Source: Stegostoma tigrinum (lineage: Eukaryota). From it: 64,000 nt of DNA. Below, one piece after another: positions 6,820 to 63,877 of the stretch; position 1 is the stretch's first letter, and the number at the start of each line of letters is the position of its first letter. The DNA is taken from assembly GCF_030684315.1 (NCBI RefSeq), contig NC_081396.1, forward strand, positions 5,208,001-5,272,000, read 5' to 3'. Both the position numbers and the translations under genes were made by a program. The notes under the pieces are model-generated. The model had not been told where the DNA came from. It worked only from the letters and a program-made list of their open reading frames with translations, and made no database searches.

Positions 6820-7631
6820 AAAAATGCTCCTAACAGTTGTAACTAGACAGTTCAAAGACAATAGTTGCATTACACAGAATCAGTATAGACTGCTGAAAGA
6901 AAAATCATGCTCGACAAATGCACTGGAGCTTTATTACAATGTAACGATTAATATAGTTAATGGGGAACCAGTGAATGCAGTGTTTGTGGATTTCCAGAAG
7001 ATTTTGATAAGATATCACTCGGGAGATAAACAAACAGAATTGTAACGTACGGGATTGACTACATAGTGGAGGGTATTTAGAATTGGTATGAAGACAGATA
7101 AGAAATAGAGTGAGAGTACATGGGCTTTGTTCAGGTTGACAATATGACTACAGGGTCTCTCAAAGAGAAGGGTTTGACCCCAGCAATTCAAAATCTGTCT
7201 GCAGTAGTTGGATGTGGAGTCCAAATTCAGCTTTTACTTTTGACAACCGACACAAATTAGGTGGAAATGTCAGGTGCCAACTGGATTCAAAGTTATTTCA
7301 CGAGCATTTGTATACATTGCATGAGTGAGCAAGAACAAGTAAATACAAGATAATTTGAACAATGCAAATTTAAGCACGTTTTAAGAAAACATAATGCGTA
7401 GTATTTCTCAAATGTGAACCATCAGGAAATAATTCTGTGTAAAGAGGTGTGAGTGTTCTTTTCTGTGAAACACTGAAAGCTAACACGCAGAGGCAACAAT
7501 AGATGAACCAAATTGTTTTGCGTGTGAGACGATTTACACTCAGCAGTGAGGAAACTTGCTACAATTGTGTAGAGCCTTTTTGAAACCACATATGGAACAT
7601 TGTGTACAGTTCCAATACATTTATCGGGGGA
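6820..7631 (+). mobile_element. Old degraded CR1 ORF2 fragment, 5' part of the copy interrupted by the young LINE
   Basis: Decayed RT motifs (KSCSTNALE, VNAVFVDFQK, KPHMEHCVQF). It ends ...GGGGGAA and resumes at 13481 with GGATGTGATTGCA (the K-D-V-I-A of CR1 YRKDV). Confidence 0.8.
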
Positions 7632-7659
7632 ATAGAACATAGAACATAGAACATAGAAC
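7632..7659 (-). repeat. CR1 3'-terminal microsatellite (GTTCTAT)x4
   Basis: + strand ATAGAAC x4 directly after the 3' UTR; CR1 elements end in short tandem repeats. Confidence 0.9.
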
Positions 7660-7727
7660 AGTACAGCACAGAACAGGCCCTTCAGCCCACAATGTTGTGC
7701 CGACCATTGATCCTCATGGATGCACCC

Positions 7728-10700
7728 TCAAATTTCTGTGACCATATGCATGTCCAGCAGTCTCTTAAATGACCCCAATGACCTTGCTTCCACAACTGCT
7801 GCTGGCAACGCATTCCATGCTCTCACAACTCTCTGCGTAAAGAACCTGCCTCTGACATCCCCTCTATACTTTCCACCAACCAGCTTAAAACTATGACCCC
7901 TCGTGCTAGCCATTTCTGCCCTGGGAAATAGTCTCTGGCTATCGACTCTATCAATGCCTCTCATTATCTTGTATACCTCAATTAGGTCCCCTCTCCTCCT
8001 CCTTTTCTCCAATGAAAAGAGACCGAGCTCAGTCAACCTCTCTTCATAAGATAAGCCCTCCAGTCCAGGCAGCATCCTGGTAAACCTCCTCTGAACCCTC
8101 TCCAAAGCATCCACATCTTTCCTATAATAGGGCGCCCAGAACTGGACGCAGTATTCCAAGTGCGGTCTAACCAAAGTTTTATAGAGCTGCAACAAGATCT
8201 CACGACTCTTAAACTCAATCCCCCTGTTAATGAAAGCCAAAACACCATATGCTTTCTTAACAACCCTGTCCACTTGGGTGGCCATTTTAAGGGATCTATG
8301 TATCTGCACACCAAGATCCCTCTGTTCCTCCACGCTGCCAAGAATCCTATCCTTAATCCTGTACTCAGCTTTCAAATTCGACCTTCCAAAATGCATCACC
8401 TCGCATTTATCCAGGTTGAACTCCATCTGCCACCTCTCAGCCCATCTCTGCATCCTGTCAATGTCCCGCTGCAGCCTACAACAGCCCTCTACACTGTCAA
8501 CGACACCTCCGACCTTTGTGTCGTCTGCAAACTTGCTGACCCATCCTTCAATTCCCTCGTCCAAGTCATTAATAAAAATTACAAACAGTAGAGGCCCAAG
8601 GACAGAGCCCTGTGGAACCCCACTCACCACTGACTTCCAGGCAGAATATTTTCCTTCTACTACCACACGCTGTCTTCTGTTGGCCAGCCAATTCTGTATC
8701 CAAGCAGCTAAGTTCCCCTGTATCCCATTCCTCCTGACCTTCTGAATGAGCCTTCCATGGGGAACCTTATCAAATGCCTTACTGAAGTCCATATACACCA
8801 CATCCACAGCTCGACCCTCATCAACCTTACTAGTCACATCCTCAAAAAACTCGATAAGGTTTGTAAGGCATGACCTACCCCTCACAAAGCCGTGTTGACT
8901 GTATTTGATCAAGCCATGCTCTTCCAGATGGTCATAAATCTTATCCCTCAGAATCCTTTCTAACACCTTGCAGACGACAGACGTGAGACTTACCGGTCTA
9001 TAATTGCCGGGGATTTCCCTATTTCCTTTCTTGAAGAGAGGAATTACATTTGCCTCTCTCCAGTCCTCAGGTACGACTCCAGTGGAGAGCGAGGATGCAA
9101 AGATCTTCGCAAGTGGCGAAGCAATTGCATTTCTCGCTTCCCAAAGCAGCCGAGGACAAATCTGATCCGGGCCTGGCGACTTGTCAATCTTAATGTTTGA
9201 CAAAATTTTCAGTACATCAGCTTCCTCTATCTCTATCCATTCCAGCATGCACACCTGCTCTTCAAAGGTTTCATTCACTACACAGTTCGATTCTTTCGTA
9301 AAGACAGAAGCAAAAAACTCATTTAGGGCTTCCCCTACCTCCTCAGGCTCCACACACAAGTTCCCTATGCTATCCCTGATCGGCCCTACTCTTTCTTTGA
9401 CCATTCTCTTATTCCTCACGTAAGTGTAAAATGCCTTTGTGTTTTCCCGGATTCCTTCTGCCAAGCCTTTCTCGTGCCCCCTCCTGGCTCTCCTCAGACC
9501 ATTTTTGAGCTCCTTCCTTGCCTGCATGTAATCCTCTCTAGCTGAACTTGACCCTAGCTTCCTCCACCTTATGTAAGCTACCTTCTTCCTTTTCACTAGA
9601 AGCTCCACCGCTCTCGTCATCCAAGGTTCCTTTATCTTACCCCTTCTTGCCTGTCTCAGAGGGACATATTTACTCATCACTCCCAACAACTGTTCCTTAA
9701 ACCATCTCCACATGTCTATAGTTCCCTTACCATGGAACAACTGCTCCCAGTCCATGCTTCCTAACTCGTGTCTAATCGCATCATAGTTTCCTCTTCCCCA
9801 ATTAAATATCCTCCCATTCTGCCTAATCCTCTCCTTCTCCATAGCTATGTAGAATGAGAGAGTGTTATGGTCACTATCACCAAAATGCTCTCCCACCACA
9901 AGATCTGATACCTGCCCCGGCTCGTTTCCGAGCACCAAGTCTAGAATGGCCTCTCCCCTCGTCGGCCTGTCAACGTACTGCGTTAGGAAACCCTCCTGAA
10001 CACACCTTACAAAAACAGCTCCATTCAAATCTTCTGCTCGAAGGAGGTTCCAATCAATATTAGGAAAGTTAAAGTCACCCATTACAACAACCCTACTGCG
10101 TCCACACTTTTCCAAAATCTGTCGACCTATGCTTTCTACAATCTCCCTGCTGCTATTGGGGGGCCTGTAGTAAACCCCTAACGAGGTGACTACTCCCTTG
10201 CTGTTCCTAATTTCCACCCATACTGACTCAGCAGGCAGATCTTCCTCGACAATGGAAGCTTCTGTAGCTGTGATACTCTCTCTGATTAGTAGTGCTACAC
10301 CCCCTCCTCTTTTTCCCCCCTCCCTATTCTTTTTAAATGTTCTAAACCCTGGAACATCCAGCAACCATTCCTGCCCATGAGAAACCCATGTCTCTGTTAT
10401 GGCCACAACATCATAGCACCAGGTACTGATCCATGCTCTAAGTTCATCACTTTTATTCCTGATACTCCTTGCATTAAAGCAAACACACTTTAACCGATCC
10501 CTTGGTTCCTTCCCAGGAAAATCCTTCCCACTAGCTGGTCTACCTCTTGCTACTGCCTCACCTGCATCAACGCTCACCTCTGGTATACAGCTCAGGTTCC
10601 CACCCCCCTGCCATACTAGTTTAAACCCTCTCGAACTACTCGAGCAAACCTTCCACCCAGGACATTGGTCCCCTTCCAGTTCAGATGCAACCCGTCCTTC

Positions 10701-10736
10701 TTGTACAGGTCCCACCTTCCCCAGAAGGCATCCCAA
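7728..10736 (-). CDS. CR1 ORF2: APE-like endonuclease + reverse transcriptase. No AUG before the endonuclease; probably entered at ~10619 by a -1 frameshift
   Basis: EN motifs FNARS, ITETW, GGGVAL, YRPP, GDFN, LDLV, SDH. RT motifs NYRPVSLTS, QHGF, DFSKAFD, GVPQGSVLGP, FADD. CR1-type C-terminus (RPHLEYCVQFW, RVVRAWNALP). The track start at 10736 is TTG; the first ATG is at 10082 (residue 219). Confidence 0.96.
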   Translation of the reverse strand: MGCLLGKVGPVQEGRVASELEGDQCPGWKVCSSSSRGFKLVWQGGGNLSCIPEVSVDAGEAVARGRPASGKDFPGKEPRDRLKCVCFNARSIRNKSDELRAWISTWCYDVVAITETWVSHGQEWLLDVPGFRTFKKNREGGKRGGGVALLIRESITATEASIVEEDLPAESVWVEIRNSKGVVTSLGVYYRPPNSSREIVESIGRQILEKCGRSRVVVMGDFNFPNIDWNLLRAEDLNGAVFVRCVQEGFLTQYVDRPTRGEAILDLVLGNEPGQVSDLVVGEHFGDSDHNTLSFYIAMEKERIRQNGRIFNWGRGNYDAIRHELGSMDWEQLFHGKGTIDMWRWFKEQLLGVMSKYVPLRQARRGKIKEPWMTRAVELLVKRKKVAYIRWRKLGSSSAREDYMQARKELKNGLRRARRGHEKGLAEGIRENTKAFYTYVRNKRMVKERVGPIRDSIGNLCVEPEEVGEALNEFFASVFTKESNCVVNETFEEQVCMLEWIEIEEADVLKILSNIKIDKSPGPDQICPRLLWEARNAIASPLAKIFASSLSTGVVPEDWREANVIPLFKKGNREIPGNYRPVSLTSVVCKVLERILRDKIYDHLEEHGLIKYSQHGFVRGRSCLTNLIEFFEDVTSKVDEGRAVDVVYMDFSKAFDKVPHGRLIQKVRRNGIQGNLAAWIQNWLANRRQRVVVEGKYSAWKSVVSGVPQGSVLGPLLFVIFINDLDEGIEGWVSKFADDTKVGGVVDSVEGCCRLQRDIDRMQRWAERWQMEFNLDKCEVMHFGRSNLKAEYRIKDRILGSVEEQRDLGVQIHRSLKMATQVDRVVKKAYGVLAFINRGIEFKSREILLQLYKTLVRPHLEYCVQFWAPYYRKDVDALERVQRRFTRMLPGLEGLSYEERLTELGLFSLEKRRRRGDLIEVYKIMRGIDRVDSQRLFPRAEMASTRGHSFKLVGGKYRGDVRGRFFTQRVVRAWNALPAAVVEARSLGSFKRLLDMHMVTEI

Positions 10737-11551
10737 TTATCAACATATCTGAAGCCCTCCCTCCTACACCAGCTGCGTAGCCACGTGTTCAGCTGCGCCC
10801 GCTCCCTGTTCCTCACCTCGCTATCTCGTGGCACCGGTAGTAAACCAGAGAACACTACTCTGTTCGTCCTGCTCTGCAGCTTCCATCCTAACTCCCTGAA
10901 ATCACTTTTTATATCCTCAAACCTATTTCTGGCTATATCATTTGTGCCAATATGTAACACGATTTCTGGCTGTTCACCCTCCCCTTTCAGAACTTTATAC
11001 ACCCGATCGGAGACGTCCCGGACCCTGGCACCAGGGAGGCAACATACCTTCCGGGAATCCCGATCTTGCCCACAAAATCTCCTGTCGATTCCCCTAACTA
11101 TCGAGTCCCCTACCACGAGTACTTTTCTATTCTGCCCCCTTCCCTTCTTTGCCACAGTGTCAGGCTCAGTGCGAGAGAACTGACTACTATGGCTTTCCTC
11201 TGGTAGGTCAACCCCCCCAGCAGTATCCAAAACGGTATACTTATTGCTGAGGGGAATGCCCACAGGGGATCTCTGCACTGTCTGTCTGTCCCCTTTCCTC
11301 CCCCTAACTGTAACCCATCTATCCTCGTCCTGAGCCTTAGGAGTGACCAACTCCCGATAACTCCTCTCAATTACCCCCTCAGCCTCCCGAATGATCCGTA
11401 GTTCATCCAGCTCCAGCTCCATTTCCCTAACACGGTTTTCAAGGAGCTGTAGCTGGGTGCACTTCCCGCAGATGTAGCCAGCGGAGACGTGTGCCACATC
11501 TCCCAACTGCCACATTTTGCAGGAGGAGCAAGCAACTGCCCTAGCATCCAT
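10616..11551 (-). CDS. CR1 ORF1 (311 aa): CxxC...CxxC zinc-binding N-terminus, coiled coil, SGNH/GDSL esterase domain
   Basis: ATG at 11551 (MDARAVACSSC...YICGKC), heptad segment LQLLENRVREMELELDEL, SGNH blocks GDS / PGAR / GTND / DGLH, TAG at 10616-10618. It is the first sense-strand AUG of the element. Confidence 0.92.
   Translation of the reverse strand: MDARAVACSSCKMWQLGDVAHVSAGYICGKCTQLQLLENRVREMELELDELRIIREAEGVIERSYRELVTPKAQDEDRWVTVRGRKGDRQTVQRSPVGIPLSNKYTVLDTAGGVDLPEESHSSQFSRTEPDTVAKKGRGQNRKVLVVGDSIVRGIDRRFCGQDRDSRKVCCLPGARVRDVSDRVYKVLKGEGEQPEIVLHIGTNDIARNRFEDIKSDFRELGWKLQSRTNRVVFSGLLPVPRDSEVRNRERAQLNTWLRSWCRREGFRYVDNWDAFWGRWDLYKKDGLHLNWKGTNVLGGRFARVVREGLN
10619..10628 (-). promoter_or_regulatory. 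Putative -1 programmed ribosomal frameshift site (G_GGU_UUA_AAC) at the ORF1/ORF2 junction
   Basis: ORF1 frame reads GAG GGT TTA AAC TAG. The -1 frame reads TTT AAA CTA GTA TGG CAG, which is ORF2 (FKLVWQ). Confidence 0.7.
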
Positions 11552-11752
11552 ACCCCACTTATCTGAACACCCACTCAATACTAAAGCAGAAAGCTCACTT
11601 CAAGTAATAATAACAAATTAATAACAAACTTATGTTCAATAGAGAAAGTTTAGAATGAACCTTACCTTATTAACTAGGTTAGAGGAGGAGGGCGGGTGGG
11701 AGACACTACAGTTGTAGAGTCTCGGGTTAAGCCGCCTTGCTGATATATATGG

Positions 11753-13482
11753 TCACTGCTTTCCTTCCCGGCTGCCCCTCTGGTCCTCGTCACTTCCTCT
11801 GATGCTCCCGCTCCTTCTCTGAAAGAGGAAAAAAAAACACCGCTGCCCGCTACCGGTAAGTAATTTTAAAAATAAACTGCTTTACCTTAGCTGCAGTCTT
11901 CCGGGTCCGTCTTGCCTCCGCTGCTGCTCGCACTCAAAAAGGCCGTTGGCGTCGAAGGGTGAGTATTTATACTCACTGCTTTCCTTCCCGGCTGCCCCTC
12001 TGGTCCTCGTCACTTCCTCTGATGCTCCCGCTCCTTCTCTGAAAGAGGAAAAAAAAACACCGCTGCCCGCTACCGGTAAGTAATTTTAAAAATAAACTGC
12101 TTTACCTTAGCTGCAGTCTTCCGGGTCCGTCTTGCCTCCGCTGCTGCTCGCACTCAAAAAGGCCGTTGGCGTCGAAGGGTGAGTATTTATACTCACTGCT
12201 TTCCTTCCCGGCTGCCCCTCTGGTCCTCGTCACTTCCTCTGATGCTCCCGCTCCTTCTCTGAAAGAGGAAAAAAAAACACCGCTGCCCGCTACCGGTAAG
12301 TAATTTTAAAAATAAACTGCTTTACCTTAGCTGCAGTCTTCCGGGTCCGTCTTGCCTCCGCTGCTGCTCGCACTCAAAAAGGCCGTTGGCGTCGAAGGGT
12401 GAGTATTTATACTCACTGCTTTCCTTCCCGGCTGCCCCTCTGGTCCTCGTCACTTCCTCTGATGCTCCCGCTCCTTCTCTGAAAGAGGAAAAAAAAACAC
12501 CGCTGCCCGCTACCGGTAAGTAATTTTAAAAATAAACTGCTTTACCTTAGCTGCAGTCTTCCGGGTCCGTCTTGCCTCCGCTGCTGCTCGCACTCAAAAA
12601 GGCCGTTGGCGTCGAAGGGTGAGTATTTATACTCACTGCTTTCCTTCCCGGCTGCCCCTCTGGTCCTCGTCACTTCCTCTGATGCTCCCGCTCCTTCTCT
12701 GAAAGAGAAAAAAAAAACACCGCTGCCCGCTACCGGTAAGTAATTTTAAAAATAAACTGCTTTACCTTAGCTGCAGTCTTCCGGGTCCGTCTTGCCTCCG
12801 CTGCTGCTCGCACTCAAAAAGGCCGTTGGCGTCGAAGGGTGAGTATTTATACTCACTGCTTTCCTTCCCGGCTGCCCCTCTGGTCCTCGTCACTTCCTCT
12901 GATGCTCCCGCTCCTTCTCTGAAAGAGGAAAAAAAAACACCGCTGCCCGCTACCGGTAAGTAATTTTAAAAATAAACTGCTTTACCTTAGCTGCAGTCTT
13001 CCGGGTCCGTCTTGCCTCCGCTGCTGCTCGCACTCAAAAAGGCCGTTGGCGTCGAAGGGTGAGTATTTATACTCACTGCTTTCCTTCCCGGCTGCCCCTC
13101 TGGTCCTCGTCACTTCCTCTGATGCTCCCGCTCCTTCTCTGAAAGAGGAAAAAAAAACACCGCTGCCCGCTACCGGTAAGTAATTTTAAAAATAAACTGC
13201 TTTACCTTAGCTGCAGTCTTCCGGGTCCGTCTTGCCTCCGCTGCTGCTCGCACTCAAAAAGGCCGTTGGCGTCGAAGGGTGAGTATTTATACTCACTGCT
13301 TTCCTTCCCGGCTGCCCCTCTGGTCCTCGTCACTTCCTCTGATGCTCCCGCTCCTTCTCTGAAAGAGAAAAAAAAAACACCGCTGCCCGCTACCGGTAAG
13401 TAATTTTAAAAATAAACTGCTTTACCTTAGCTGCAGTCTTCCGGGTCCGTCTTGCCTCCGCTGCTGCTCGCACTCAAAAAGG
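11753..13482 (-). repeat. Tandem array of 220-bp monomers (~7.9 copies) forming the LINE 5' UTR
   Basis: TTCCTTCCCG recurs at 11761, 11981, 12201, 12421, 12641, 12861, 13081 and 13301. The only difference seen between copies is G>A at 12708 and 13368. Confidence 0.98.
13256..13291 (-). promoter_or_regulatory. Putative core promoter of each monomer: TATAAATA followed 30 nt later by CCTTTTT (TCT/TOP-like initiator); outermost complete copy shown
   Basis: The minus strand reads GTGAG-TATAAATA-CTCACCCTTCGACGCCAACGG-CCTTTTTG. TATA starts at 11971+220n (7 copies). AGAGGAAGTGACG (ETS plus half-CRE) lies upstream and CCGGAAG downstream. Confidence 0.6.
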
Positions 13483-13860
13483 ATGTGATTGCACACGAAA
13501 GATTGCTAGAGTGATTTCTCACATGATAGTGTTATTAGATAAGTATAGACTCGTGAGTCAAGACCAGGATTGTCTAGAAATTAGACGATTGCAAAGTGCC
13601 CTTCTTAAGATAGCTGAAGTCAAACAGGCGTCGACAGGATAGGTGTAGGAAGGATTTTTCCCTTGCTTGAAAATTGCGAAGTAGGAAATCCGTACCAGAA
13701 AAAGTGTGCGATGAAGTTTGGTTGAGCTGCAGGGAAATTTCGTCAGTCAGTGGAAATCTCCATATCGCATGGTTTTGGAGGCTGAATCATGCCGATGAGT
13801 ACAACAGAAGTCAACAGATAGAAGTAGAAACGATTGGAGAACCTCAACAGTTCGGGTAGA
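13481..13860 (+). mobile_element. Old degraded CR1, 3' part continuing after the young insertion
   Basis: GGATGTGATTGCACACGAAAG continues the CR1 C-terminal frame; decayed 3' region follows. Confidence 0.7.
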
Positions 13861-14899: not shown

Positions 14900-17700
14900 C
14901 TGTACCATAAGGTATGGAAGCAGAATTGGCCCATCGACTCCGCTCCATTATTCGATTATGGTTGATAAGTTTATCCATCCTATTGTCCTGTCATTTCCAG
15001 GTAACCTTTGATCCTCTGCCTAATGATGGACCTATCTATCTCTGCCATTAAAAAAAACAACTAAGGTAGTTTGCCTTGACAGTGTTCTACAAAAAAATAG
15101 TTCCATACATTCACCAGCCACTCTGGCTGAACATATCTTTCCTCATGTCAATTCTAAAAGGTTGACTTTTCACTCTGAGGCTGTGCCCTCGGGTCCTAAT
15201 CTTTCCTACTGTTGAAAAACCCTGTTCACTTCAACCCTGTCCAGGCCTCTCAGTAAGCTTAAGGAAACTCCCGTCCCATTCTTTCAAATGCCATCAAATC
15301 TAGACCCAGAATCCTCAAACATTCATCAATGTGGCAAGCCTTCCATATGCGGGACGTTTGTCATTATCCTCCTCTGGCTTCTTTCCAGCGCTAACATATA
15401 CTTACTGAAGTACACGACTCAAAGCTACCCACAATAGTTCAAGTGCGGTCAGACCGGGGCCTGAGAGAGAATCTGCAGTACATCCTTCTTTCTGCAACAA
15501 GCCCTCTTGAAATGAAATGCTAACTTTGAATTGGCCTTTTGAACTGGTGATTGAAATTGCATGTTAAGATGAGGAGAATTCCAACCGAGGACACCGAAGC
15601 CTCTATCTCTTTCACATTTCCAAGGCTTTTCCTTGTTTGGAACGCAGTGCACACCTCTGTTCTTTTTACCAAAGAGCAGAACCTCGCACTTTCCCACATT
15701 ACATTCCATCTACAAAATCTTTGCCCACTTACAGACCCTGCACAAATCCTTCTGCAACTTTCCCAGATGCCAAACACTACTTGTTTCACCAGCTGTCATT
15801 GAATCGCCGAAAATCTTCACAATAATACCGTTGGTTCCTTTGACCAGATTGTTCATAAAAAACGTGAATAGTTGCGTTCCAAAGACTAACCTCCGCAGAA
15901 CTTTAGTCGTCACCGACTGCCATTCTGAAAATGACCCCTTTATTTCAACTCTCCGTTCTGCCTCAGGCAGCTATTCTACCTGTGCCAGTACCCTGCCCAA
16001 ACGGTTGTGTTTTTATTTTAAATTTGATTAGCAACTCCTGTTCAGCTCCTTGCCAAATCGCTTCTGGAAATCCAAACAGGTCATGTCCAGTGGCTCTCCT
16101 TTGTCGAGCTTTCTCATTATCTCCTCAAAGAATTCTAACAGATCTGTCAGGAATGACCTTCACTTTGATAAAATCCCACTGACCCAGCCCTATTTTACCA
16201 TGCATTTCCAAGAACTCCATGATCCTTAATACTGAAATCTTTCAAACGATTAATGTCAGGTTAATGGGCCTATTATTTGTCGTCTTCTGACTCCTTCTAT
16301 TCTTCAAGTAAAGTGTTACATTAGCCATGTTCCAGTCGTTTCGGACTCTTCATGACTTCAGTTATTCCTGAAAGATCACCAGCAATGCCTCCACACTGTC
16401 CTCAGCTGTCATTTTCGGATGCCTCAGGTGCACTCCATTCTGGCTGGATGATTCATCCTTATTCAGATCTTTCAGCATCTCCAGCACCTTCTACTTCGTG
16501 ATGACAAGTCACTCTCGTCCGCATTCCACCCCCTCCCCCCCACCCCACACTGAGTATCTTGAGGTTCTCTTATAGCAATGCCGTCTTCCCCATTAGGATC
16601 AATGCAAAGTACTTACTCAATTTGTTCCACACTTCTATTTCTCCAGGCTCATTTTCAACTCATCAATTATCCATTGTTGATCTCAATTAACTTTTAATGT
16701 ATCTTAAAAAAACTGACATGCTTCTTCCATATTAATTACCAGCTTGCCTTCATATGTTATCTTCTCCTTCTTTATTGCTTTTTTAATTGTCCTCTGTTGT
16801 TTCTTTGTTTTAAAAATATGTCTTCACAGTCCTCTGACTTCCCACTAATCGTAAATACATTCCATGCTTTTTCTTTTGCTTTAATGCAGTCCCTAACTTT
16901 CCTTGTAAGCCATGATTGTCTCATCCTCCACTTAGTATGGCTCCCCTTCCTACGGATAATTTTCTGCTGTACCTCTGGAATTAGTCCCAGAAACAACAGC
17001 CATTGCTGTCCTATTCTCTTCCCTGCGAGACACTACTTCCAACAAGTCCTAACCGGTTCCTTCTTCATGTCTTTTTAGTTATGTTCAATCAATTCTAAGA
17101 CAGCTACATCTACTTCAAGCTACTCCCTCCCAAACTGCAAGGTGAATGCTATCATAACATGGCCAGTTACCCCTAAGTGTTTCTTCAACTGAAATGTCCT
17201 ACTCTCATCTGCCTCATTACACATCGCCAAATCGAGAATTGCCTGTTCACTAGTAGGCTATACAGCAAGCTGATCTAAAAACAACATCCTGTAGATATTC
17301 TACGGATTAGTTTTCTCGAGATTGACAACCATCACAATTTTCCCAGTTTACCTGCGTACTGAAACCCTCCATGACGATTTTAATTGTGTCGTTCTTATGT
17401 GCCTTTTCCATTTTCTGATTTATTTCTGCTCCCTAGAAAGCCTGTCCATACATTTCATGTGGGCCTTTCTTTGTTTGCTGTCTCTCCAATCTACTCACAT
17501 ATATTCTCCGCTTTCAAAAACTATATCTCTTCTTGTTCTTGGTTTAAGTTCACTTCTTATGATGAAGACAATCATGTTCCTCAGGCCATATCTTTTTCCT
17601 TTGAAAATGCCACGTATCTTTGTATCTTCCATTCCAACCCTCATTCCCTTGCAGCCACATGCCTGCGATGTCCACATGTTGACACTTAACAACTAGTCAA
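14900..17700 (-). mobile_element. Degraded CR1-type LINE (EN-RT remnant)
   Basis: Fragments VFGTQLFTFFMNNL, IVKIFGDS, WAKILXMECNVGKCEVLLFG, WLTRKVRDCIKAKEKA, with many stops. Confidence 0.85.
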
Positions 17701-20959: not shown

Positions 20960-21585
20960 TGTTGAGAATTCTTTGTCTCTGGCATGCTTGTCTTCATTGT
21001 TCAGTTCGTTGAGTCGAAGAATTGGGAAGTCATGTTGAGGTTGTGTAGTACATTCTCGAGACTTCTTCTGGAATACTGCGTCTATTTCTGGTGGCCCTAT
21101 TTTACGAAGGATATTATTAAGCTGGAGAGTATCCGGAGCAGGTTCAACAGGATGTAGCCGCATATGGAAGAGTTGAATTAAAAAGAAGGGCTGGATAGGC
21201 TGGAATTATTTTCGCCAGAGCTGAGGACGTCCAGAGGCGACCTCATCGATTTTTTTAAAATAATGTGAGTTCTACATAGAGTTAATTGTAGTCGACCTTT
21301 CCTTACGAGGGATATTTTAAGACTGGCACATTTTAAATGCGAGAAGAGAAGGTTGTAACAAAAGAAATGAATGGCATTCTTTTTAACACATAACTTCCCA
21401 AGGAAGCAGTAGATGCTACTACAATTGCAACGTTCAAAAGATATTTGGATAGAGACATGAATAGGAAAGGCTTTCAGGGATATGGGCGAGGGGCAAGCGA
21501 AAGGAAATAGTTTAGTATGTGATTCTGTTCGGCATGAACTTGTTGGACCAGAAGGTCTTTTTTCAGTGCTGTATGATTCTATCAC
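20960..21585 (+). mobile_element. 5'-truncated degraded CR1 3' end
   Basis: LLLEYCVYFWWPYF, RGDLI and the typical tail ...GGACCAGAAGGTCTTTTTTCAGTGCTGTATGATTCTAT. Confidence 0.85.
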
Positions 21586-21755: not shown

Positions 21756-23947
21756 TCATTTAATGCAACTGTAGAAGAACGTGTAAGGAGATATCAGCAG
21801 CTTCTTCGGTTCTTCCTGGAACTTATTCTGGGTTACTGCATAGATGAATACATTATTGCAAGAACTGAGTAACTAGAGCAGGTTGGTCGCCTCTTGCAGA
21901 ATGAATTGTGGATCATTGAAATCCAGTCCGCCAAAGTAGCCCTCCCCAGTAAACTGCACGAAGAGGAATCTCCCAACATAGGTGGCCCAAAGGAGGAGGA
22001 AGATGAGGGAAATTGTTAAGAGCAGTATAATGGACTTCTTGCGGTTGGCCAACTCAGCATCTTTGGAATTCTCAGTGCCCAGCAGTCTCTTCCAAGCTTC
22101 GCTGGCTTCTAGAATGGACCTAACAGTCAGGATGTTGAACAGGAGAATAATGAAGAAAGGGAGAAAGGGGGTTAACGTGTGGTCTAGCCATTGGTAGCTC
22201 TTCCAGACTGGCGAGATGTAATAGCTGGACTTTAAGTCACAGAACCAGGGCTTCCACTCTAGAATGTATAAGAGTTGGTGGACAAAGAAGAAAGGGACAT
22301 TCTTGACACAGCTCAGTAGACAGACTATTCCTATCACGAGTGATGCAGTTTTTTTCCGTGCAGTAGCTGGTCTTCAGACTCTGGAAACAAATAGCCACAA
22401 AACGGTCGATGGTGAAGGCCGCAGTCAGCCAAACCGAGCCATCCCGACTGATATACACAAACACAATGCCAATTCTGCACCTGGGTGTGGTGGATAGGAG
22501 GCTGTACCTAAAGTAAATGCTGCCAATCCGATTGATAATGACAGCAACGATGATGATGAAGAAATCCGTGACTGCAATTGCCAGTAAGTAGTAGGTGATA
22601 CCACGAGACAGCCCACACCTTCCTCGGGAAAGGATCAGTATTGCCACCAAATTAGCTGTGCGATACAAAAAGAGAGAAACAGTTGAAACATCAGGTGCTT
22701 CCAATCCAATCTTTTGTTGAAACTTTCATGAATGCTCTCTTATGCATAAAGCAAAACACATTTGTTCGTCATTCATACCAGGGTTAATTATTTGTCATGA
22801 AAAGAGTAATTCCAATTTTACCCTGCTAATAACTCCTTTGACCGGCCAGTCAGTCAACTGTGTTGCTGGCTTTCCAGCTTCACCACAGTGAAACATTTGC
22901 TGCTCCATGCCATTTATTACACCAAGTCCATCTATCAAAGTCTATTGTCGCTGAATACATTGTCTTTACGCCAAGTAACATCTTCGCACAATAGCAACTG
23001 ACTCCATCGACAAGTCACTCAGTCAGACCATGTAGTTGGCTTTCCCACTTAACCTCAATGGAAACATTTGCTGCTCCATGACATTTATTACATCAAGTCC
23101 TTCCATCAACATCTATTCTTGCTGAATACATTGTCTTGATGCCACGCAACACCTTCATACAATAACCTAATCTTTCAAACTTCCAAGTTCCAAATACTAT
23201 CGCGACACCCATCTCTACAGCAATCCAAAACCAACTAATATGGCAGAACACCTACTTTCTGACCTTCTGCATCTCCCTCAATTTTTTCCTCCAACAGTGT
23301 CCATGCCCAAACCTCTTTAATTCATTCCCTCAGCAGAACTCTCTCTTTTACCCTCTAGCACCGTCTTTATAACTGCAAATTTTGATAAAACTAATGATAA
23401 TATTTCTTCTTATTTAAAAGTTAACATGAAACCGAATGAACTGCTGAATAAGCAAGGAAAACTCTGCATTCACGAATCGAAACTAAAAATTACTGTTGCA
23501 CTAATCAGCGACAGCCGCATCTGGCTAATTGTTAAATCTATAATTATGCAAAATTTAAGCCTAAATTATCTATCAGCAAATGACATATGCTCAATATGAA
23601 TAATCTTGGAACTTCATTCACTTATTTCAAGAGTTTCCACAATAAATATCCATTCCATCATCACAATCACAATAGGTATCGCCAGTGGAATTAGCTAGTG
23701 CATTCAGCACCAGACATAACATGCTAGAATATTAGATAATGCATAAAATAAAGAACCCAACTGAAATCCCTGTCACTCAGAAAGTTAAATAAATTTGGCC
23801 GAATCTGAAAGAGAGGAAACAAGAATTCAGGACATTAAATATCGATGTATATTGCATTCTTAGGATCTATTACTGACCCGGAACACCAATTGCAGCAAGA
23901 AGAGGATAGCAAATACCAAAGACGGGACCATTCGCTGGCCCGTGCAT
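21756..23947 (-). pseudogene. GPR139-like class A GPCR pseudogene (exon 1 23878-23947; exon 2 21756-22655)
   Basis: Exon 1 encodes MHGPANGPVFGICYPLLAAIGVP with a phase-1 GTCAGT donor. Acceptor CACAG at 22656. Exon 2 has NLVAILILSRGRCGLS, TIDRF and NVFIYA. Lesions: one extra base in an A7 run (22349-22355) and an in-frame TAG at 21873-21875. Confidence 0.92.
22847..23165. repeat. Diverged two-copy tandem duplication (~171-bp period) in a GPCR intron
   Basis: GAAACATTTGCTGCTCCATG at 22890 and 23061, with colinear similarity on both sides. Confidence 0.9.
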
Positions 23948-31232: not shown

Positions 31233-31287
31233 AACATAGAACAGTACAGCAGAGAACAGGCCCTTCAGCCCACAATGTTGTGCCGAC
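31233..31287 (-). mobile_element. 55-bp 3'-terminal fragment of the young CR1 family
   Basis: Matches ~7650-7704 except for one substitution (GCAGAG vs GCACAG). Confidence 0.85.
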
Positions 31288-35769: not shown

Positions 35770-36900
35770 GGATGATTGAAAATTTCGAGTCAGTGACCAG
35801 GAGCATCAATGACGACAATGCAATTAACATACATGACTTGTACTTCAGGAAGCCGTTTGAAGAGCTCCTGTACGGGAGACTGATAGAATAGGTCAGAGAC
35901 ATGGAATTTGGGAAATTTGGCTGGGTGGATCTGAAATTGGATGAGGGAAAGAAAACAAAGGCTACTTGTCTGATGGCTATTTGTGACTGTGAAACTGCTT
36001 TCAATGGGCTTCCACATGGGTCAGCATTGGGAAGCTTCTTTTTTGTGACTTTCATAAATGATTTAATCACGAATGTTAGGAAAGTTGATCAGTAAGTTCG
36101 TGGATGACATGAACACTTTTGGTGTCACATATAGTGAGGAACATAATCTTAGATTGCAAGAGGAGCTAGACAGGATTTTCAGATCCGCTGATCAGGGACA
36201 AAGTGAATTCAGTCAAGATAAGTGTGACGTAATGCACATGAGCAGAATAAACATGGCATTGAATTATGGGATATTGAGAAACACTGAAGTGCACAGGGAA
36301 CTTGGTGTGCATGTCCACCGACCCATTAGTTTGGTGGGGAAGGTAAGAAAACAATTGCGATACTTGTTTTTATTAGTCCAATTACAGAGGTTTAGAGCAG
36401 GAAAGTCATGGTGGAACTGCATAAAATGACAGTTTGTCCGCAGTTAGAGTATTGTGACTAGTTCTGGAATCCCCAGTAAAGAAGGAGTGGTATTGCACTG
36501 GAAACGGGACAAAGGAGGTTTAACAGGATGTTGAGTGATCTGGATATTTTAGCTGTGGAAAGAATGTGAACAGATGTAGATTGTTTCCCTTGCAGCAGAA
36601 CAACCAGAGGGGTGACGACTGACGTGAACAAAAGTATGTGGAGAGATAGAACAGGCAGGAATCAATGCAGACAGAATAGAAAGGAATGATTGCAGATAGA
36701 ATGGACAGCAATAGCTGTTTCCTGTTGCTGGACGATTCAACAACTGCTGTATAAGTTTAAGGTAAAGGGAAGGACGTTCATACGATATGCAAAAAGGTTT
36801 TATTCACCCAGAGTGTTGCCAGAATGTGTAAATCACTGTCTTTGAGGTTGCTAGAGACAAGAGATGAGAATTTCGTAGACATGCATTTATGATGCCATGT
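35770..36900 (+). mobile_element. Degraded CR1 RT/3' fragment
   Basis: GLPHGSALGSFFFVTFINDL, ISKFVDDM, RLQEELDR, KCDVMH. Confidence 0.88.
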
Positions 36901-37022
36901 CTTACGATGCAATTGGCCAAATGTTGGAACGAGAGATGAGAATATTTAAATGTTAGTTCCTGGCATACTTTCATTTTCCACTCCTCTAGAAGACTGCGAC
37001 TGAAAGATTTCACGTTTCAACG

Positions 37023-37187
37023 NNNNNNNNNNNNNNNNNNNNNNNNNNNNNNNNNNNNNNNNNNNNNNNNNNNNNNNNNNNNNNNNNNNNNNNNNNNNNN
37101 NNNNNNNNNNNNNNNNNNNNNNNNNNNNNNNNNNNNNNNNNNNNNNNNNNNNNNNNNNNNNNNNNNNNNNNNNNNNNNNNNNNNNNN
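37023..37187. other. Assembly gap (N run)
   Basis: Run of N. Confidence 1.
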
Positions 37188-37744
37188 TTGTATTCCTGTT
37201 TTCCTGTCCATATTCGTTTTGCATCTCGATCTGTATGTTTCCATATGTGTATATTTCCCTGTGTGTTGTTGTTCTGTTTGTCGAAGTGTCTGGTTAGATA
37301 CAAGTTCAGAATTAGAAATGTTCATCTGGAGTTTCTTTTCATTGATTTAAATTCTTTTTCAGGAAAAAAAGTGGCAGCTACAGTGGGAGATAAATTGTCT
37401 GATGGATCGTAATGAATAAATGAGGACCACAGTGCCATTTCTGATTTCTTTGTCTGAAGATGCATACAACAGTTCCAACCTCAGAATGTGTACATTCGTA
37501 GCTGCACTGGTGCAGGTTGAAATTCCCAGAAATTACCAACCAACAGTACCATTTAAACTGACAGTAGCATCACGAACGATTGCTACACAGCACAATAGAT
37601 CGGTTTTTGAAGCGAAAAATTTTTACAACAAAATACTCATCTAAAATCACCAATGAAAGTTGCAATTTCAGTAGTTACATCTCCTGGTTTGTGATTACAG
37701 TGGATCGTTTAGTTACTCACTGGCGTCCATGGATGCCAGTTGCA

Positions 37745-46715: not shown

Positions 46716-48923
46716 TGAGGAATATGAATCACATGTCGTGGCATCATTTAATGATTGGTATTCTCCTCCTCTTTTTCGATGGAATCAGACATCATACATT
46801 CACCCAGCCCGACTTGAGACATTTTGGCCCATTGAGCAGGGTCAACATTTCACTGTTGTGAATATTGAAGGAATGCTGAGCTACCAAATGTGCTGTCTTC
46901 CTGGATGATATCTAAACCACTGAGTCTACCCACTCTCACAGTTGGACTGTATAATATTTTACATTTGGCATTCCAAAAAGGCCCAGAAATTTCGCCTGTG
47001 ACTTGCTTGGTCAACATTTGCTCGTCATATATTAGCACTGAAACGAGTTTGCTGCTAAGTTCTCCCGATTTTTTATTGGAATTTTGCTTTGTTTACATTT
47101 GATTTTTGACTTCCAATATTTCAAAGAATTTGAAAAAAATTAATTATTTGGAACAAAAAGGGGACGTGAGGTCATGAAAAATGCTGCATCGATTCATTTT
47201 CTTACTTTTTTGCTTCTTTCTATCATTTCTCTCTTTCTTTCTATGTAAATTATATTTTAACGTCAGGATTCTGGACAATGTGGAGAGAGTCGGGCACGTG
47301 CCCAATTAGTGAACATCACCAAAGGCCATGGTCTCAGTTCTTGGGCCTCTCGCCTCTGATCCTGTGATGGATTATCTTTGTTCAAGTCAATCAAATTGGT
47401 GAGTTCTTGTCAACAGTCCTGCTGACTGTGGCAGAGGTATCCTGGAGCTGAGAACATCGAAATCTAAGGAACACAGGCAGTTTAGTCTGTTCCCAGTATG
47501 ATAACAAACATGGAGAACATTCTCACAATTTTCATTAGCACATTGTATGCAGCGAAGCATCAAGCGCAACACATCTCCTGGACTTTCCAGCTATCGGCTG
47601 GAAAACCAGAAACTGACAGTTCTGTAAATTGTGGTCAATAAATTGTGTTGCAGAGCTTTCCAGTACAATTCAGTCTTCAGCCATTGATCATAAACGTCTG
47701 CACAAATACTACTGAATGCTTTGCTTGACTGATATTCCACAAAACAATTCTAGTTATAATTGCTATAGATTGCAAGATTATTCGTCTAAGTCCACTGAAT
47801 TGCCCCAAATAGTTAGACAATATCTGCTTACTTACTCGAATCAGAACGACTTCATATAAATACTGATGGAATTCTGATTTTGAAAAATAATTGAACGCTT
47901 CTTAATTTCTAACCAATACGATCTTAACCAAAATTAGGTAACATCATGAATCACTGATGATAGTTTTTTTCTTGTTTTTGTAATTCACCTCAATGCTGTT
48001 CTATCAATATTAATCTCATCGAAGAGCAAAAGTATCAAGCAAAGGAAGACACTGAGATAATCTTCCTTGGCAACTTCTTTACGATTCATCGTACAATGTC
48101 ACAGAAAATACAGGAATGTCAGCAAATAAATCTGCTTCCATAATCGTAATGCTGTAAATTCCAAACATATTGATTAAGAACAGAGTACATCTCCCCCGTA
48201 ATGTCCCAGGAAATATTACGTGTGAAACAGCTACAGGATTAATTTACTTCTACAGGGCAGTACTAAAGACTTCCAGACAAATGCAACTCTGGAAAACATA
48301 CAGAGGAACTCTAGTTTAGCCAAGACTGATAAAGTGTAAAATTGAGAAAAATGTAACTTGTGGTTATATCAAAGAGACACACTGTCACGCAACAGGGGAA
48401 CAGGCCCTCCGGCCATCTTGCCTATATTTCTCTAAATCTTTCCTACCTAAGTACCTTCCTAAATATCAGAATAGAAATACTTTGAATTACACATGCAATG
48501 TGCTGCCTTAGTGAGCATGATCGTAGAAGCATCAATGTAGCCAATGTCTAAGGGCAGAGCTGAGCCAAAAACTACAGGCTGAAAACAGAAACACTGCTCT
48601 GTGAGGACGGTGAATAAAAATGAATAAACAATCTGCGGAAGAATATTTTGCTCTACATCTACAAACAACTCGCTAACTATTAATATCCTTGTAATAAACT
48701 AAATCACTGTGTCACTGTTTCCAGAATCTCAAATCTGGGTAATAGTCCACCACTATCTGAATGACACCATGATAACAAGGCAATGATACATCGGCAAAGA
48801 CACTGGTCATAGGACAACACATAATATTGATCCATTGTTGAAATTATTTCTTGTAATTACTCATTGATCTCCAGAAGGCGGTGGCCTGCCTTCTTGATTC
48901 ATTTCACTAAATTTCATACAAAA

Positions 48924-49221
48924 NNNNNNNNNNNNNNNNNNNNNNNNNNNNNNNNNNNNNNNNNNNNNNNNNNNNNNNNNNNNNNNNNNNNNNNNNNNNN
49001 NNNNNNNNNNNNNNNNNNNNNNNNNNNNNNNNNNNNNNNNNNNNNNNNNNNNNNNNNNNNNNNNNNNNNNNNNNNNNNNNNNNNNNNNNNNNNNNNNNNN
49101 NNNNNNNNNNNNNNNNNNNNNNNNNNNNNNNNNNNNNNNNNNNNNNNNNNNNNNNNNNNNNNNNNNNNNNNNNNNNNNNNNNNNNNNNNNNNNNNNNNNN
49201 NNNNNNNNNNNNNNNNNNNNN
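48924..49221. other. Assembly gap (N run)
   Basis: Run of N. Confidence 1.
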
Positions 49222-49426
49222 GTTTCATGCCCATCATTTATTTTTCATGTTGCACACACAGAAAATCTGATTAAATATGATCCTATCAACTTCATCGTTG
49301 ATAGAATTTTGCAAATTAATCCATCTGGAAGTTTGTGTTGAAAAGTAAGTTTTCTCAAATTACTCTTTCTTGTAAAATCCTTGTTTTGGCGAAAGTTTAC
49401 TGCACATGGAGACACAGTTCAATGTA

Positions 49427-49465
49427 AGATGTTGTAGAACCAGATCCATTGTTTGTCTCACAGTA
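49427..49465 (-). promoter_or_regulatory. Defective 23-RSS
   Basis: TACTGTG, 23 bp, then ACAACATCT. The essential first C of the heptamer is lost. Confidence 0.75.
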
Positions 49466-49932
49466 CCTGCATCGCACAGTCATATACTCCAGCATCCTCG
49501 ACCTCATTGAGATCAAACAAAATCGTTTTAGCCTTCTTTTCTCTGTTCGATGAAAGAGTACCGCGTCCAATTGCCAAATCACGTTGGCACATGTAGCCGA
49601 TAAATGGCAGAGGCCCTGTTAGTATTTTTCTGTACCAAATCACATTAGCATCAGAACGAAACGAGAACCAAGTGTCCAATTCAACTGGATTCCCTTCCAA
49701 AGATAGCACTTGACCAGCCTGTGAGCTTTGACTCTCATACTGAACTGCAGTAACGAAAGAAACATTCCTCAAACGTAACAAACTATAAAGGGATTGATAA
49801 AACCAGGTGCCTGATTAGAAAACTAAATTTACACAATATCAAAAATATCAGAGTTGCGAGTGGGAACAGATCATTGTAGGTCTTCCTTTTCATGATGATG
49901 AAGATGGATAGGAGGATCAATCAGGATCTCGT
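49466..49932 (-). pseudogene. TCR alpha/delta-type V pseudogene (dead leader 49887-49932; V exon 49466-49744)
   Basis: Open V frame QYESQSSQAGQVLSLEGNPVELDTW...VIWYRK...EVEDAGVYDCAMQ, lacking the first Cys. The 46-nt leader has ACG in place of ATG, an internal TGA, and GG in place of the GT donor. Confidence 0.85.
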
Positions 49933-49993
49933 TTTCAGACGAGGAATTGCTGTGAAGGCAACAACTCTCGACGACGGTGATTTGGTTGAACTT

Positions 49994-50207
49994 NNNNNNN
50001 NNNNNNNNNNNNNNNNNNNNNNNNNNNNNNNNNNNNNNNNNNNNNNNNNNNNNNNNNNNNNNNNNNNNNNNNNNNNNNNNNNNNNNNNNNNNNNNNNNNN
50101 NNNNNNNNNNNNNNNNNNNNNNNNNNNNNNNNNNNNNNNNNNNNNNNNNNNNNNNNNNNNNNNNNNNNNNNNNNNNNNNNNNNNNNNNNNNNNNNNNNNN
50201 NNNNNNN
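49994..50207. other. Assembly gap (N run)
   Basis: Run of N. Confidence 1.
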
Positions 50208-50574
50208 ATGTAGTCCTGACCAGGTGAGGACAATAGTTACTCTCCCTATAGAACATCAGATTAATGCATTATTTGAATGGGATTCATTGGCATGCATATG
50301 ACGGACGAGAAGATGTCTGTTTCATGGAGAGGTGTACTCATTCGGAAGAGGCAGAGTTCAGTGCAAAGATTTAGAGACAAAAGGACACTGAGAATGTCAG
50401 AGAAGAAACATGAACGATCAGAGGAAGTTAATGCCTACAAATCCCGTTGCTTTGTTCGCAGATGTCATCTGCTTTGACAGAGAATTGAGAAAATGCCTTC
50501 AGCCTGTCAGTAAGTGAAACCTGATCCTGGTTACACATTAACATCAGATTAGGCGGGGCAAAACATAAACCTGA

Positions 50575-62902: not shown

Positions 62903-63292
62903 AAAGTGTGAAGCTGGATGAAAACAGCAGGCCAAGCAGCATCTCAGGAGCACAAAAGTTGACATTTCCGGCCCAGACCCTTCATCAGAGAGGGGGACGG
63001 GGAGTGGGCTCTGAAATAAATAGGGAGAGAGGGGGAGGTGGACCGAAGATGGAGAGGAAAGAAGAAAGGTGGAGAGGAGAGTATAGGTGCGGAGCTAGGG
63101 AGGGGATAGGTTAGCTCAGGGTGGACGGACAGGTCAAGGAGGCAGAATGAGTTTAGTAGGTAGGAAATGGAGGAGCGACTTGCTGTGGGAGGAGGGAACA
63201 GGTGAGAGGAAGAAGAGGTTATGGAGGCGGGGACAATCTGGGCTGGTTTTGGGATGCAGTCGGGGAAGGGGAGATTTTGAAGCTTGTGAAGT
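62903..63292 (-). mobile_element. Penelope-like 3' fragment with a 6-bp TSD (CAGAAC) and a hammerhead core
   Basis: CAGAAC at 62897-62902 and 63293-63298 flanks the insert. Minus-strand CTGATGA-AGGGTCTGGGCCG-GAAATGTC at 62961-62988. Confidence 0.8.
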
Positions 63293-63689
63293 CAGAACTG
63301 GCTCAGTCATGAGAGACTGTAGTGATGGAAGGATGTTTGTTAGAACAAATGACTACTACTGGTGTTCCAGACGGATCAGTGCTGGAAGTTTTGTTGTTCG
63401 TGGTCTGCAGACATGATTTGGAGTAAAACGTGGCTAGGATTGGTCGACTTGCTGATATTGAGAAGCATTGTCAGATGGACAACAGGATGTAGATCAGTTG
63501 GAGGCATTGGCTGAAAAATTTCAGATGATGTTTAATCAGGGCATATGTGACGTGGTACACTTTTCAAGTGCAAGTACAGGCAGAAAATATTCAATGAATG
63601 GTAGGACCATGAGGAACATTGATATGCAGGGGGATTTGGGTGTGCTTGTCCACAGATGAGCGAAGGTGGCAGTGTGGGTAGATATGGTA

Positions 63690-63877
63690 GGTAAGCAGGT
63701 TGGGTGGATTGGCAATGCTAAATTTCCCTTAGTCTTCAGGGATATGTCGCCTCCGTGCATTAGCCACGGGAAATACAAGTGTAGGATAGGTGGATAGCTC
63801 TGTGTGAGATGCTGTTTGGAGGGTCAGTGTCGTGTTGGTGGGCTCAATGGCCTGTATCCACACTGTGGGGATTCTAC
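63690..63877 (+). mobile_element. 5'-truncated HE1-like SINE
   Basis: GGTGGATTGGCAATGCTAAATTTCCC...GGCCTGTATCCACACTGTGGGGATTCTA. Confidence 0.7.

What the first reader, a model, noticed from the sequence alone, without database searches (positions are those of the whole stretch)
10560..10640. AUG-less LINE ORF2 joined to ORF1 by a coronavirus-type U_UUA_AAC -1 frameshift site
Seen: ORF2 has no AUG until residue 219 (10082), downstream of the endonuclease motifs FNARS, ITETW and YRPP. ORF1 ends G_GGU_UUA_AAC_UAG, which is two overlapping in-frame X_XXY_YYZ heptamers, and a -1 slip lands exactly in ORF2 (…LN-LVWQGGG). Directly 3' is a possible stem (GUAUGGC-AGG / CCU-GA-GCUGUAU) with a G-rich loop. 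Established: UUUAAAC is a classic -1 frameshift heptamer, and gag-pol-type frameshifting is the norm in retroviruses and many LTR elements, whereas L1 uses termination/re-initiation. Inference: this CR1 makes a ~1274-aa zinc-finger/coiled-coil/esterase-EN-RT fusion protein at a fixed ratio to ORF1p.
Basis: partly seen in the sequence, partly recalled or inferred. Interest (0 to 1): 0.85.

Follow-up and report, generated by a model that had tools for sequence, protein, structure and literature searches.

The report
Virus-style frameshift in CR1 retrotransposons
This shark jumping gene probably makes its copying enzyme by a retrovirus-like ribosome slip at a seven-letter signal that its relatives from sharks to reptiles also keep, which would explain how a very widespread vertebrate retrotransposon reads its second gene.

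Summary
Confirmed and extended. The window holds an intact 5.85-kb CR1 LINE on the minus strand, most likely from a carpet shark. ORF1 ends G_GGU_UUA_AAC_UAG. ORF2 is in the -1 frame and its first AUG (residue 219) lies inside the endonuclease. The signal is conserved: 84 of 96 judgeable ORF1 homologs end in LN*. Eighteen published CR1-group consensi from 12 vertebrate species read TTTAAAC plus a stop (TAG, TAA or TGA) at the junction, and none of 39 places with other spellings lay at a junction. Distant relatives change the signal: two loci end U_UUU_UUA in the -1 register, 27 of 29 of their relatives end FLx*, and another group ends (Q)GN*, as G_GGA_AAC would give. Programmed -1 frameshifting to a ~1274-aa ORF1-ORF2 fusion is the best explanation (0.83), but it is inferred, not measured. 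Against: some families carry a linker AUG or a UAAUG stop-start. Ten literature searches found no report for CR1. Precedent exists in Dictyostelium TRE5-A, and three early CR1 papers could not be read.

The parts
7632..13482 (-). Full-length, intact CR1 LINE, inserted into an older CR1 reverse-transcriptase fragment that lies on the + strand
   Evidence: both flanks translate as consecutive RT-like text
11753..13482 (-). 5' end: 7.9 tandem copies of a 220-bp monomer, 99% identical, with TATA-like, splice-donor-like and acceptor-like motifs; no AUG anywhere in the 5' UTR
   Evidence: function inferred from motifs only
11686..11723 (-). 5' UTR hairpin (11723-11700) followed by a pyrimidine tract (11706-11686); best in-element partner of the G-run after the slip site; candidate long-range stimulator
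   Evidence: -27.6 kcal/mol; 8 of 150 shuffles as good, so borderline; motif also in 5 of 16 whale-shark CR1 rows
10616..11551 (-). ORF1, 311 aa: CX2C-X16-CX2C zinc-finger-like motif, long helix (29-69), disordered linker, SGNH/GDSL esterase, ending in Leu-Asn-stop
   Evidence: PF13472; 4C1B, E 2e-28, residues 143-307
10622..10628 (-). G_GGU_UUA, in-frame heptamer, seen only in shark and ray junctions; same position as U_UUU_UUA in loci L002 and L003
10619..10625 (-). U_UUA_AAC, in-frame slippery heptamer, conserved across vertebrate CR1; proposed -1 shift site
10616..10618 (-). ORF1 stop UAG directly after the heptamer (UAA or UGA in other families)
10599..10608 (-). G-run (GGGGGGUGGG) starting 10 nt after the heptamer; a GGGG run lies 3-12 nt after the heptamer in 13 of 18 published junctions (1 cut off, 4 without); candidate part of the stimulator, or simply codons for a Gly-x-Gly motif
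   Evidence: counted by eye; two-tier G-quadruplex predicted
10585..10616 (-).
10494..10619 (-). 42-codon linker in the ORF2 frame between slip site and endonuclease; no Met, no stop
9867..10478 (-). APE-type endonuclease domain; first AUG of ORF2 (10082) lies inside it
   Evidence: (PF03372)
8307..9032 (-). Reverse transcriptase domain
   Evidence: PF00078, E 1.5e-34
7632..7727 (-). Short 3' UTR ending in a 7-nt tandem tail (4.1 copies)

Best explanation
The element is transcribed as one bicistronic RNA. Most ribosomes stop at the ORF1 UAG and release the 311-aa ORF1p. A minority slip back one base on U_UUA_AAC (Leu and Asn tRNAs re-pair on UUU and AAA), read on through a flexible linker and make a ~1274-aa zinc-finger/coiled-coil/esterase-endonuclease-RT fusion, the CR1 counterpart of Gag-Pol. 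This keeps RT scarce and attaches it to ORF1p. The same scheme is proposed for most esterase-ORF1 CR1 elements, with the heptamer exchanged between lineages (U_UUA_AAC in vertebrates, U_UUU_UUA and probably G_GGA_AAC elsewhere). Shown: frames, missing AUG, heptamer, conservation. Inferred: the slip, the fusion protein, its amount and purpose. Unresolved: the stimulator; the conserved G-run 10 nt downstream is the best candidate.
For: (1) Geometry and chance 0.0017. (2) 84 of 96 ORF1 homologs with the DGLH anchor end in LN* (24 of 120 lacked the anchor and were set aside), 80 of the 84 at the same distance, from sharks to birds, while neighbouring positions vary. (3) DNA level, PMC13343379 Table S2: 17 of 23 TTTAAACTA places plus one TTTAAACTGA lie at ORF1 ends (18 families, 12 species); 6 of 6 judgeable rows found by an independent upstream anchor carry it; 0 of 31 places with other Leu/Asn spellings and 0 of 8 with another first base lie at a junction. 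Protein constraint alone gives about 0.01 per lineage. (4) Four chimeric gene models read FKL in the ORF2 frame at this spot (P0037, P0079, P0113, P0295), as does P0141. (5) In five consensi the -1 frame has a stop six codons upstream, so no upstream start can reach it (by eye). (6) The 2 of 9 fetched loci that have an esterase ORF1 both end T_TTT_TTA in frame, -1 to ORF2, with 88- and 84-codon open linkers (chance 0.0006, 0.0002) and a hairpin 11 nt on. (7) 27 of 29 relatives of L003 end FLx* with x free; 10 distant proteins end GN*, 9 preceded by Gln (NNG-compatible), whereas only 3 of 111 LN tails are preceded by a residue lacking an NNU codon. (8) LN lies beyond the last predicted helix and beyond the part that aligns to the solved esterase 4C1B. 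(9) No good splice acceptor near the junction; the AUG just after this stop is out of frame.
Against: No experiment, Ribo-seq or peptide data. No convincing stimulator in the window: stem z about 0, pseudoknot candidate only 4+4 pairs, long-range duplex matched by 8 of 150 shuffles, no Rfam match. Three of 18 junctions read UAAUG with the AUG in the ORF2 frame, and duck, ray, tortoise and L003 ORF2 frames carry a Met ahead of the endonuclease. 18 of 38 non-LN distant tails have no slippery-compatible dipeptide within three residues of the stop. The GN group has no DNA context. Consensus junctions were read by eye, only the first 400 nt of each were visible, and many have indels; I traced the -1 frame into the endonuclease in one (ScyCan_CR1-1a). 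Related sequences are not independent counts.
Confidence: 0.83

Rival explanations
1. Termination-reinitiation, as in L1 and SART1: ribosomes stop at UAG and restart nearby at an AUG or near-cognate codon, giving a separate ORF2p.
For: It is the mechanism reported for L1 and SART1 (PMC2881922; PMC3894237), and L1 initiation is described as independent of the AUG (PMC5009743). Three of 18 junctions have an in-frame UAAUG. The window has in-frame CUG (10595) and GUG (10577).
Against: It does not explain fixation of TTTAAAC at synonymous sites or the exchange to other heptamers. 15 of 18 junctions lack UAAUG. In the window the nearest AUG (10614) opens a 15-codon out-of-frame ORF. It may operate alongside frameshifting in some families.
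Confidence: 0.09
2. The motif is kept for another reason (a C-terminal Leu-Asn needed by ORF1p, or an RNA or DNA binding site), and ORF2 starts by internal or non-AUG initiation.
For: Leu at this position is shared by the LN and FLx groups and could pack on the esterase; terminal pLDDT is weak evidence.
Against: The invariant residue moves from the last position (N) to the third-last (F) between groups exactly as the heptamers require; synonymous alternatives were not found; the -1 frame is closed six codons upstream in five families; the ZfL2-1 esterase folds without LN.
Confidence: 0.04
3. The frame is corrected at the RNA level: a spliced mRNA or polymerase slippage on the T/A runs joins ORF1 or a 5' exon to ORF2.
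For: The 5' UTR has many donor-like and acceptor-like sites, so the element probably is spliced.
Against: No AUG in the 5' UTR; the four AG sites with any pyrimidine tract near the junction reach only 50-56%; runs of three bases are short for slippage (general knowledge). Simple motif scan only.
Confidence: 0.04

Closest known systems
CR1 clade LINEs with type IVB ORF1 (zinc finger/leucine zipper + esterase; CR1 subgroup 7 of Metcalfe and Casane 2014, PMC4120745)
   Same: Domain order, APE and RT in ORF2, short 3' UTR with microsatellite tail. The element is an ordinary member.
   Different: No frameshift signal is mentioned in the passages searched of that paper, of the 2026 CR1 survey (PMC13343379) or of the chicken CR1 paper (PMC2734521) (0 hits each).
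Dictyostelium TRE5-A and TRE3-A non-LTR elements
   Same: Stated to need a -1 frameshift for ORF2 (PMC5911963, Fig. 1 legend).
   Different: Amoebal tRNA-gene-targeting elements with an unrelated ORF1. I did not see the primary evidence or their shift site.
Viral -1 frameshift cassettes (IBV coronavirus U_UUA_AAC; retroviral gag-pol)
   Same: Same heptamer class; U_UUA_AAC, G_GGA_AAC and A_AAA_AAC are listed among the most shift-prone (PMC5009743). Structural-protein-polymerase fusion logic.
   Different: No strong pseudoknot or stem 6-9 nt downstream was found here; no protease is encoded, so the fusion would stay uncut (Pfam scan).
Human L1 and silkworm SART1
   Same: Bicistronic LINE RNA with low ORF2 output that depends on ORF1 translation.
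   Different: They reinitiate and make a free ORF2p; SART1 uses UAAUG. This copy has no usable AUG.
Zebrafish ZfL2-1 ORF1 esterase (PDB 4C1B)
   Same: Closest solved structure, E 2e-28.
   Different: The six most similar representatives (DGLHP motif) do not end in a slippery-compatible dipeptide, so the signal is not a property of the esterase itself.

Membership tests
CR1 LINE, esterase-ORF1 type | ORF2 with APE endonuclease and RT closest to CR1 elements | tested here: met
   no RT tree was built, assignment rests on homolog lists and the ORF1 tree
CR1 LINE, esterase-ORF1 type | ORF1 with zinc finger/zipper and SGNH esterase | tested here: met
CR1 LINE, esterase-ORF1 type | 3' microsatellite tail instead of poly(A) | tested here: met
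   7-nt unit x4.1 at 7632-7660
Programmed -1 ribosomal frameshift cassette | In-frame X_XXY_YYZ heptamer before the 0-frame stop, with an open -1 frame | tested here: met
Programmed -1 ribosomal frameshift cassette | Heptamer conserved beyond what the protein requires, or swapped for another heptamer | tested here: met
Programmed -1 ribosomal frameshift cassette | 3' stimulatory structure about 6-9 nt downstream | tested here: inconclusive
   Window stem no better than shuffles and only 2 nt from UUUAAAC; G-run conserved; hairpins in L002 and L003 at z -3.3 and -2.2 in short windows chosen after seeing them, -1.2 to -1.7 in longer ones
Programmed -1 ribosomal frameshift cassette | Measured frameshifting and a fusion protein | not testable with these tools
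   needs reporter, Ribo-seq or mass spectrometry
SART1-type stop-start coupling | UAAUG with the AUG in the ORF2 frame | tested here: not met
   Window reads UAGUAUG with the AUG out of frame; met in 3 of 18 other families

The most novel reading that the evidence does not exclude
Esterase-ORF1 CR1 elements across animals make their reverse transcriptase only as an ORF1-ORF2 fusion by an ancient -1 frameshift whose heptamer has been exchanged between lineages. In sharks the stimulator is not a local hairpin but a duplex between the G-run after the slip site and a conserved pyrimidine tract in the 5' UTR 1.1 kb upstream, starting 6 nt after the heptamer. I put the frameshift itself at about 0.83 and the long-range stimulator at about 0.15.
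Probability: 0.15. Interest if true: 0.92.

Novelty: new variant of a known kind. Interest (0 to 1): 0.82.

Why it matters
How LINEs translate ORF2 is called an open question in a review devoted to it, which lists reinitiation, IRES and 2A but has no mention of frameshifting (PMC3894237). CR1-group elements are the dominant retrotransposons of most vertebrates and cover 22-34% of shark and ray genomes (PMC13343379). If the reading holds, the true CR1 enzyme is an ORF1-ORF2 fusion, which would (a) give the esterase/coiled-coil ORF1p a direct role in carrying RT, (b) mean that CR1 ORF2 annotations starting at the first Met are wrong, (c) tell anyone building a CR1 retrotransposition assay to keep the junction intact, and (d) add a very large, old, cellular family of -1 frameshift sites. 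It is testable with a 100-nt reporter insert.

Tried and rejected
Other junction copies in the window: none; the other CR1 pieces are old ORF2 fragments. ORF1 scan of genome contigs: 92 pattern matches, none confirmed. Of the 9 endonuclease loci, L001 is too short to show ORF1 and L004-L009 have no esterase ORF1; the heptamer in L007 runs into a stop. H-type pseudoknot search: one weak 4+4 candidate. Rfam: two chance matches below cut-off. The test that the residue before LN avoids E/K/Q/M/W is weak alone, since positions -6, -7 and -9 do too; only the contrast with the GN group is used. Search for the 5' UTR tract outside sharks: TCTCCCACCC in 5 whale-shark CR1 rows and 1 L2 row; the reptile-type complements were not seen in CR1 rows among the places shown (18 of 25 for one term); no family showed both tract and junction, so covariation could not be tested. 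The tree is the quick version, 83 rows, midpoint root, used only to show that end types group by clade. The bacterial promoter/terminator scan was uninformative. PMC4255032, PMC6609765 and PMC4700185 passages were irrelevant.

Full report
THE ELEMENT. The finding sits in a complete CR1 LINE on the minus strand, about 13482 to 7632. It begins with 7.9 copies of a 220-bp monomer (99% identical), then ORF1 (11551-10616, 311 aa; GDSL/SGNH esterase; zinc-finger-like motif), then ORF2 (frame open 10736-7728; endonuclease and RT), and ends in a 7-nt tandem tail. Both frames are intact. The closest named protein is 98.5% identical and comes from Stegostoma tigrinum, so the host is probably that shark or a close relative. 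No second copy of the junction lies in the window.

THE OBSERVATION. ORF1 ends GAG GGT TTA AAC TAG, and the ORF2 frame reads GGG TTT AAA CTA GTA TGG, one base back. The first ORF2 Met is residue 219, after three endonuclease motifs, so AUG initiation there would give a broken nuclease (inference from the motif positions). The two overlapping heptamers are the only in-frame ones in ORF1. From the element's codon usage the chance of a heptamer on the last two codons is 0.0017.

CONSERVATION IN PROTEINS. Of the 120 ORF1 homologs listed (of 146 found), 24 lack the C-terminal DGLH anchor and were set aside. Of the other 96, 84 end in Leu-Asn-stop, 80 of them exactly 26 residues from the anchor. Named sources include sharks, rays, coelacanth, a teleost, frogs, turtles, lizards and a bird. 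The 12 exceptions are mostly truncated, frameshifted or extended models, plus one IN and one LI. In the predicted structure the last helix ends at residue 307, and the solved ZfL2-1 esterase aligns only to 307, so LN has no evident structural role. Chimeric gene models from a ray, a tortoise, a shorebird and two unnamed sources read Phe-Lys-Leu in the ORF2 frame at this point; LN* in one frame and FKL in the other fix the DNA as TTTAAACT.

CONSERVATION IN DNA. Supplementary Table 2 of PMC13343379 lists 1,003 vertebrate CR1-group consensi, of which only the first 400 nt were visible. TTTAAACTA occurs at 23 places; by eye 17 are ORF1 ends, and one TTTAAACTGA is another: 18 families from 12 species (halosaur, bowfin, elephant shark, stingray, sawfish, catshark, dogfish, coelacanth, bullfrog, alligator, crocodile, bearded dragon). 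All three stop codons occur. Because that search is circular I ran two controls. An upstream anchor (DGLH codons) gave 17 places, 7 true anchors, 6 with the ORF1 end in view, all 6 with TTTAAAC. Twelve other spellings of Leu-Asn-stop gave 31 places, none at a junction, and other first bases gave 8 places, none at a junction; not every spelling was tried. Protein constraint alone would give T-TTA-AAC with probability about 0.01 per lineage. In five consensi the -1 frame has a stop six codons upstream, which rules out an upstream start as the reason for the conserved FKL. The GGG of the first heptamer appears only in shark and ray rows.

EXCHANGE OF HEPTAMERS. A scan of genome contigs with an endonuclease alignment gave 9 loci, apparently eukaryotic contigs inside prokaryote assemblies. 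Two carry the end of an esterase ORF1 (25-30% identical to ours). Both end Phe-Leu-Val-stop on T_TTT_TTA, in frame, with ORF2 at -1; that this is the HIV-1 gag-pol heptamer is recalled. Their linkers are open for 88 and 84 codons (chance 0.0006 and 0.0002; the window's 42 codons 0.08). L002 has no Met in the linker, L003 has two. Both have a hairpin 11 nt downstream in which two pairs differ on both sides (two sequences, by eye). Of 29 longer relatives of the L003 ORF1, 27 end FLx* with x free. A profile search gave 134 new representatives among its best 150; 88 had the anchor and 77 a tail of 22-45 residues: 39 end LN, 10 GN, 1 KN, against a 4.8% background for such dipeptides. Nine of the 10 GN ends are preceded by Gln, as G_GGA_AAC allows; only 3 of 111 distinct LN tails are preceded by a residue without an NNU codon. 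The GN proteins have no DNA context and share ancestry, so this is a prediction, not a count of independent events. Of the 38 non-LN tails, 18 show no compatible dipeptide near the stop, including most of the ZfL2-1-like group.

RESULTS AGAINST. Three of 18 junctions read UAAUG with the AUG in the ORF2 frame, the SART1 stop-start signal. Duck ORF2 models start at a Met 17 residues before the endonuclease, and many other homologs have a start at varied distances (start letters from gene callers need not be AUG). In the window itself the AUG after the stop is out of frame. No stimulator is established: the pseudoknot candidate is weak, Rfam has nothing, and the best long-range partner of the G-run, a 5' UTR pyrimidine tract also seen in 5 of 16 whale-shark rows, is matched by 8 of 150 shuffles.

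MECHANISM. The most likely reading is tandem -1 slippage on U_UUA_AAC, perhaps helped by the adjacent stop and the G-run, giving a minor ~1274-aa fusion. Frames, missing AUG and conservation are shown; slippage, product and ratio are inferred. Confidence 0.83; reinitiation 0.09; other constraint 0.04; RNA-level correction 0.04.

LITERATURE. Ten full-text searches listed no paper reporting frameshifting in CR1; only the top 40 of 162 and 30 of 3,801 were shown. Seen as passages only: PMC5009743 (first 300,000 of 449,034 characters; no 'CR1'), PMC10275272, PMC4120745, PMC3905857, PMC2734521, PMC2881922, PMC4700185, PMC5911963, PMC1616946, PMC4255032, PMC6609765. PMC3894237: part 1 of 3 plus passages. 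PMC13343379: part 1 of 8, passages, and supplement parts 1 and 44 plus searches. A -1 frameshift is stated for Dictyostelium TRE5-A and TRE3-A and a frameshift within the HeT-A gag gene, so the idea is not new for non-LTR elements. Haas 1997, Kajikawa 1997 and Kapitonov and Jurka 2003 were not held, and Repbase notes and bioRxiv supplements could not be seen; an earlier passing suggestion for CR1 is quite possible.

VERDICT. Real feature, ordinary element, unusual and apparently unreported expression signal conserved across a major LINE lineage. New variant of a known kind; interest 0.82.

Noticed in passing
window 11753-13482 (-): 7.9 near-identical 220-bp 5' monomers, each with TATA-like, donor-like and acceptor-like motifs, recalling the monomer promoters of mouse L1 (recalled). 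A further donor-like site lies at 11665 just before ORF1. Catshark and white shark CR1 rows show similar repeated 5' units.
   Followed up: partly
window 11686-11723 (-): A 5' UTR hairpin plus pyrimidine tract is shared with 5 of 16 whale-shark CR1 families; role unknown.
   Followed up: partly
window 7556-7630 and 13479-13510 (+): The element sits inside an older CR1 RT fragment of opposite orientation, which marks both ends; no clear target-site duplication was seen.
   Followed up: partly
window 55803-56741 (-) and 21873-22725 (-): Intronless rhodopsin-family GPCR frames (Pfam 7tm_1); the second is split over two frames and may be a pseudogene.
   Followed up: no
window 15185-17281, 20981-21301, 35772-36638, 53007-53452, 57270-57653, 62398-63698: Older degraded CR1 ORF2 fragments, 22-48% identical over the longer matches. 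A 55-bp piece of the element's 3' end recurs at 31233-31287 (98%).
   Followed up: no
L001-L009; proteins P0008, P0123: LINE sequences filed under bacterial or archaeal names (for example a shark-type ORF1 named as Pseudomonas aeruginosa), most likely eukaryotic contamination of assemblies.
   Followed up: no
P0268, P0358, P0378, P0382, P0399: A further ORF1 group has Lys-Asn at the usual end position followed by a variable tail of about ten residues, which would fit A_AAA_AAC with a later stop; no DNA seen.
   Followed up: no
PMC13343379 Table S2, AldAff_Crack-2: A row labelled Crack carries an esterase ORF1 end and the TTTAAAC junction, so either the label is off or the signal extends beyond CR1 proper.
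   Followed up: no
window 36940-37412 and 48831-50301: Clusters of overlapping stop-free frames on both strands in AT-rich DNA; not examined.
   Followed up: no
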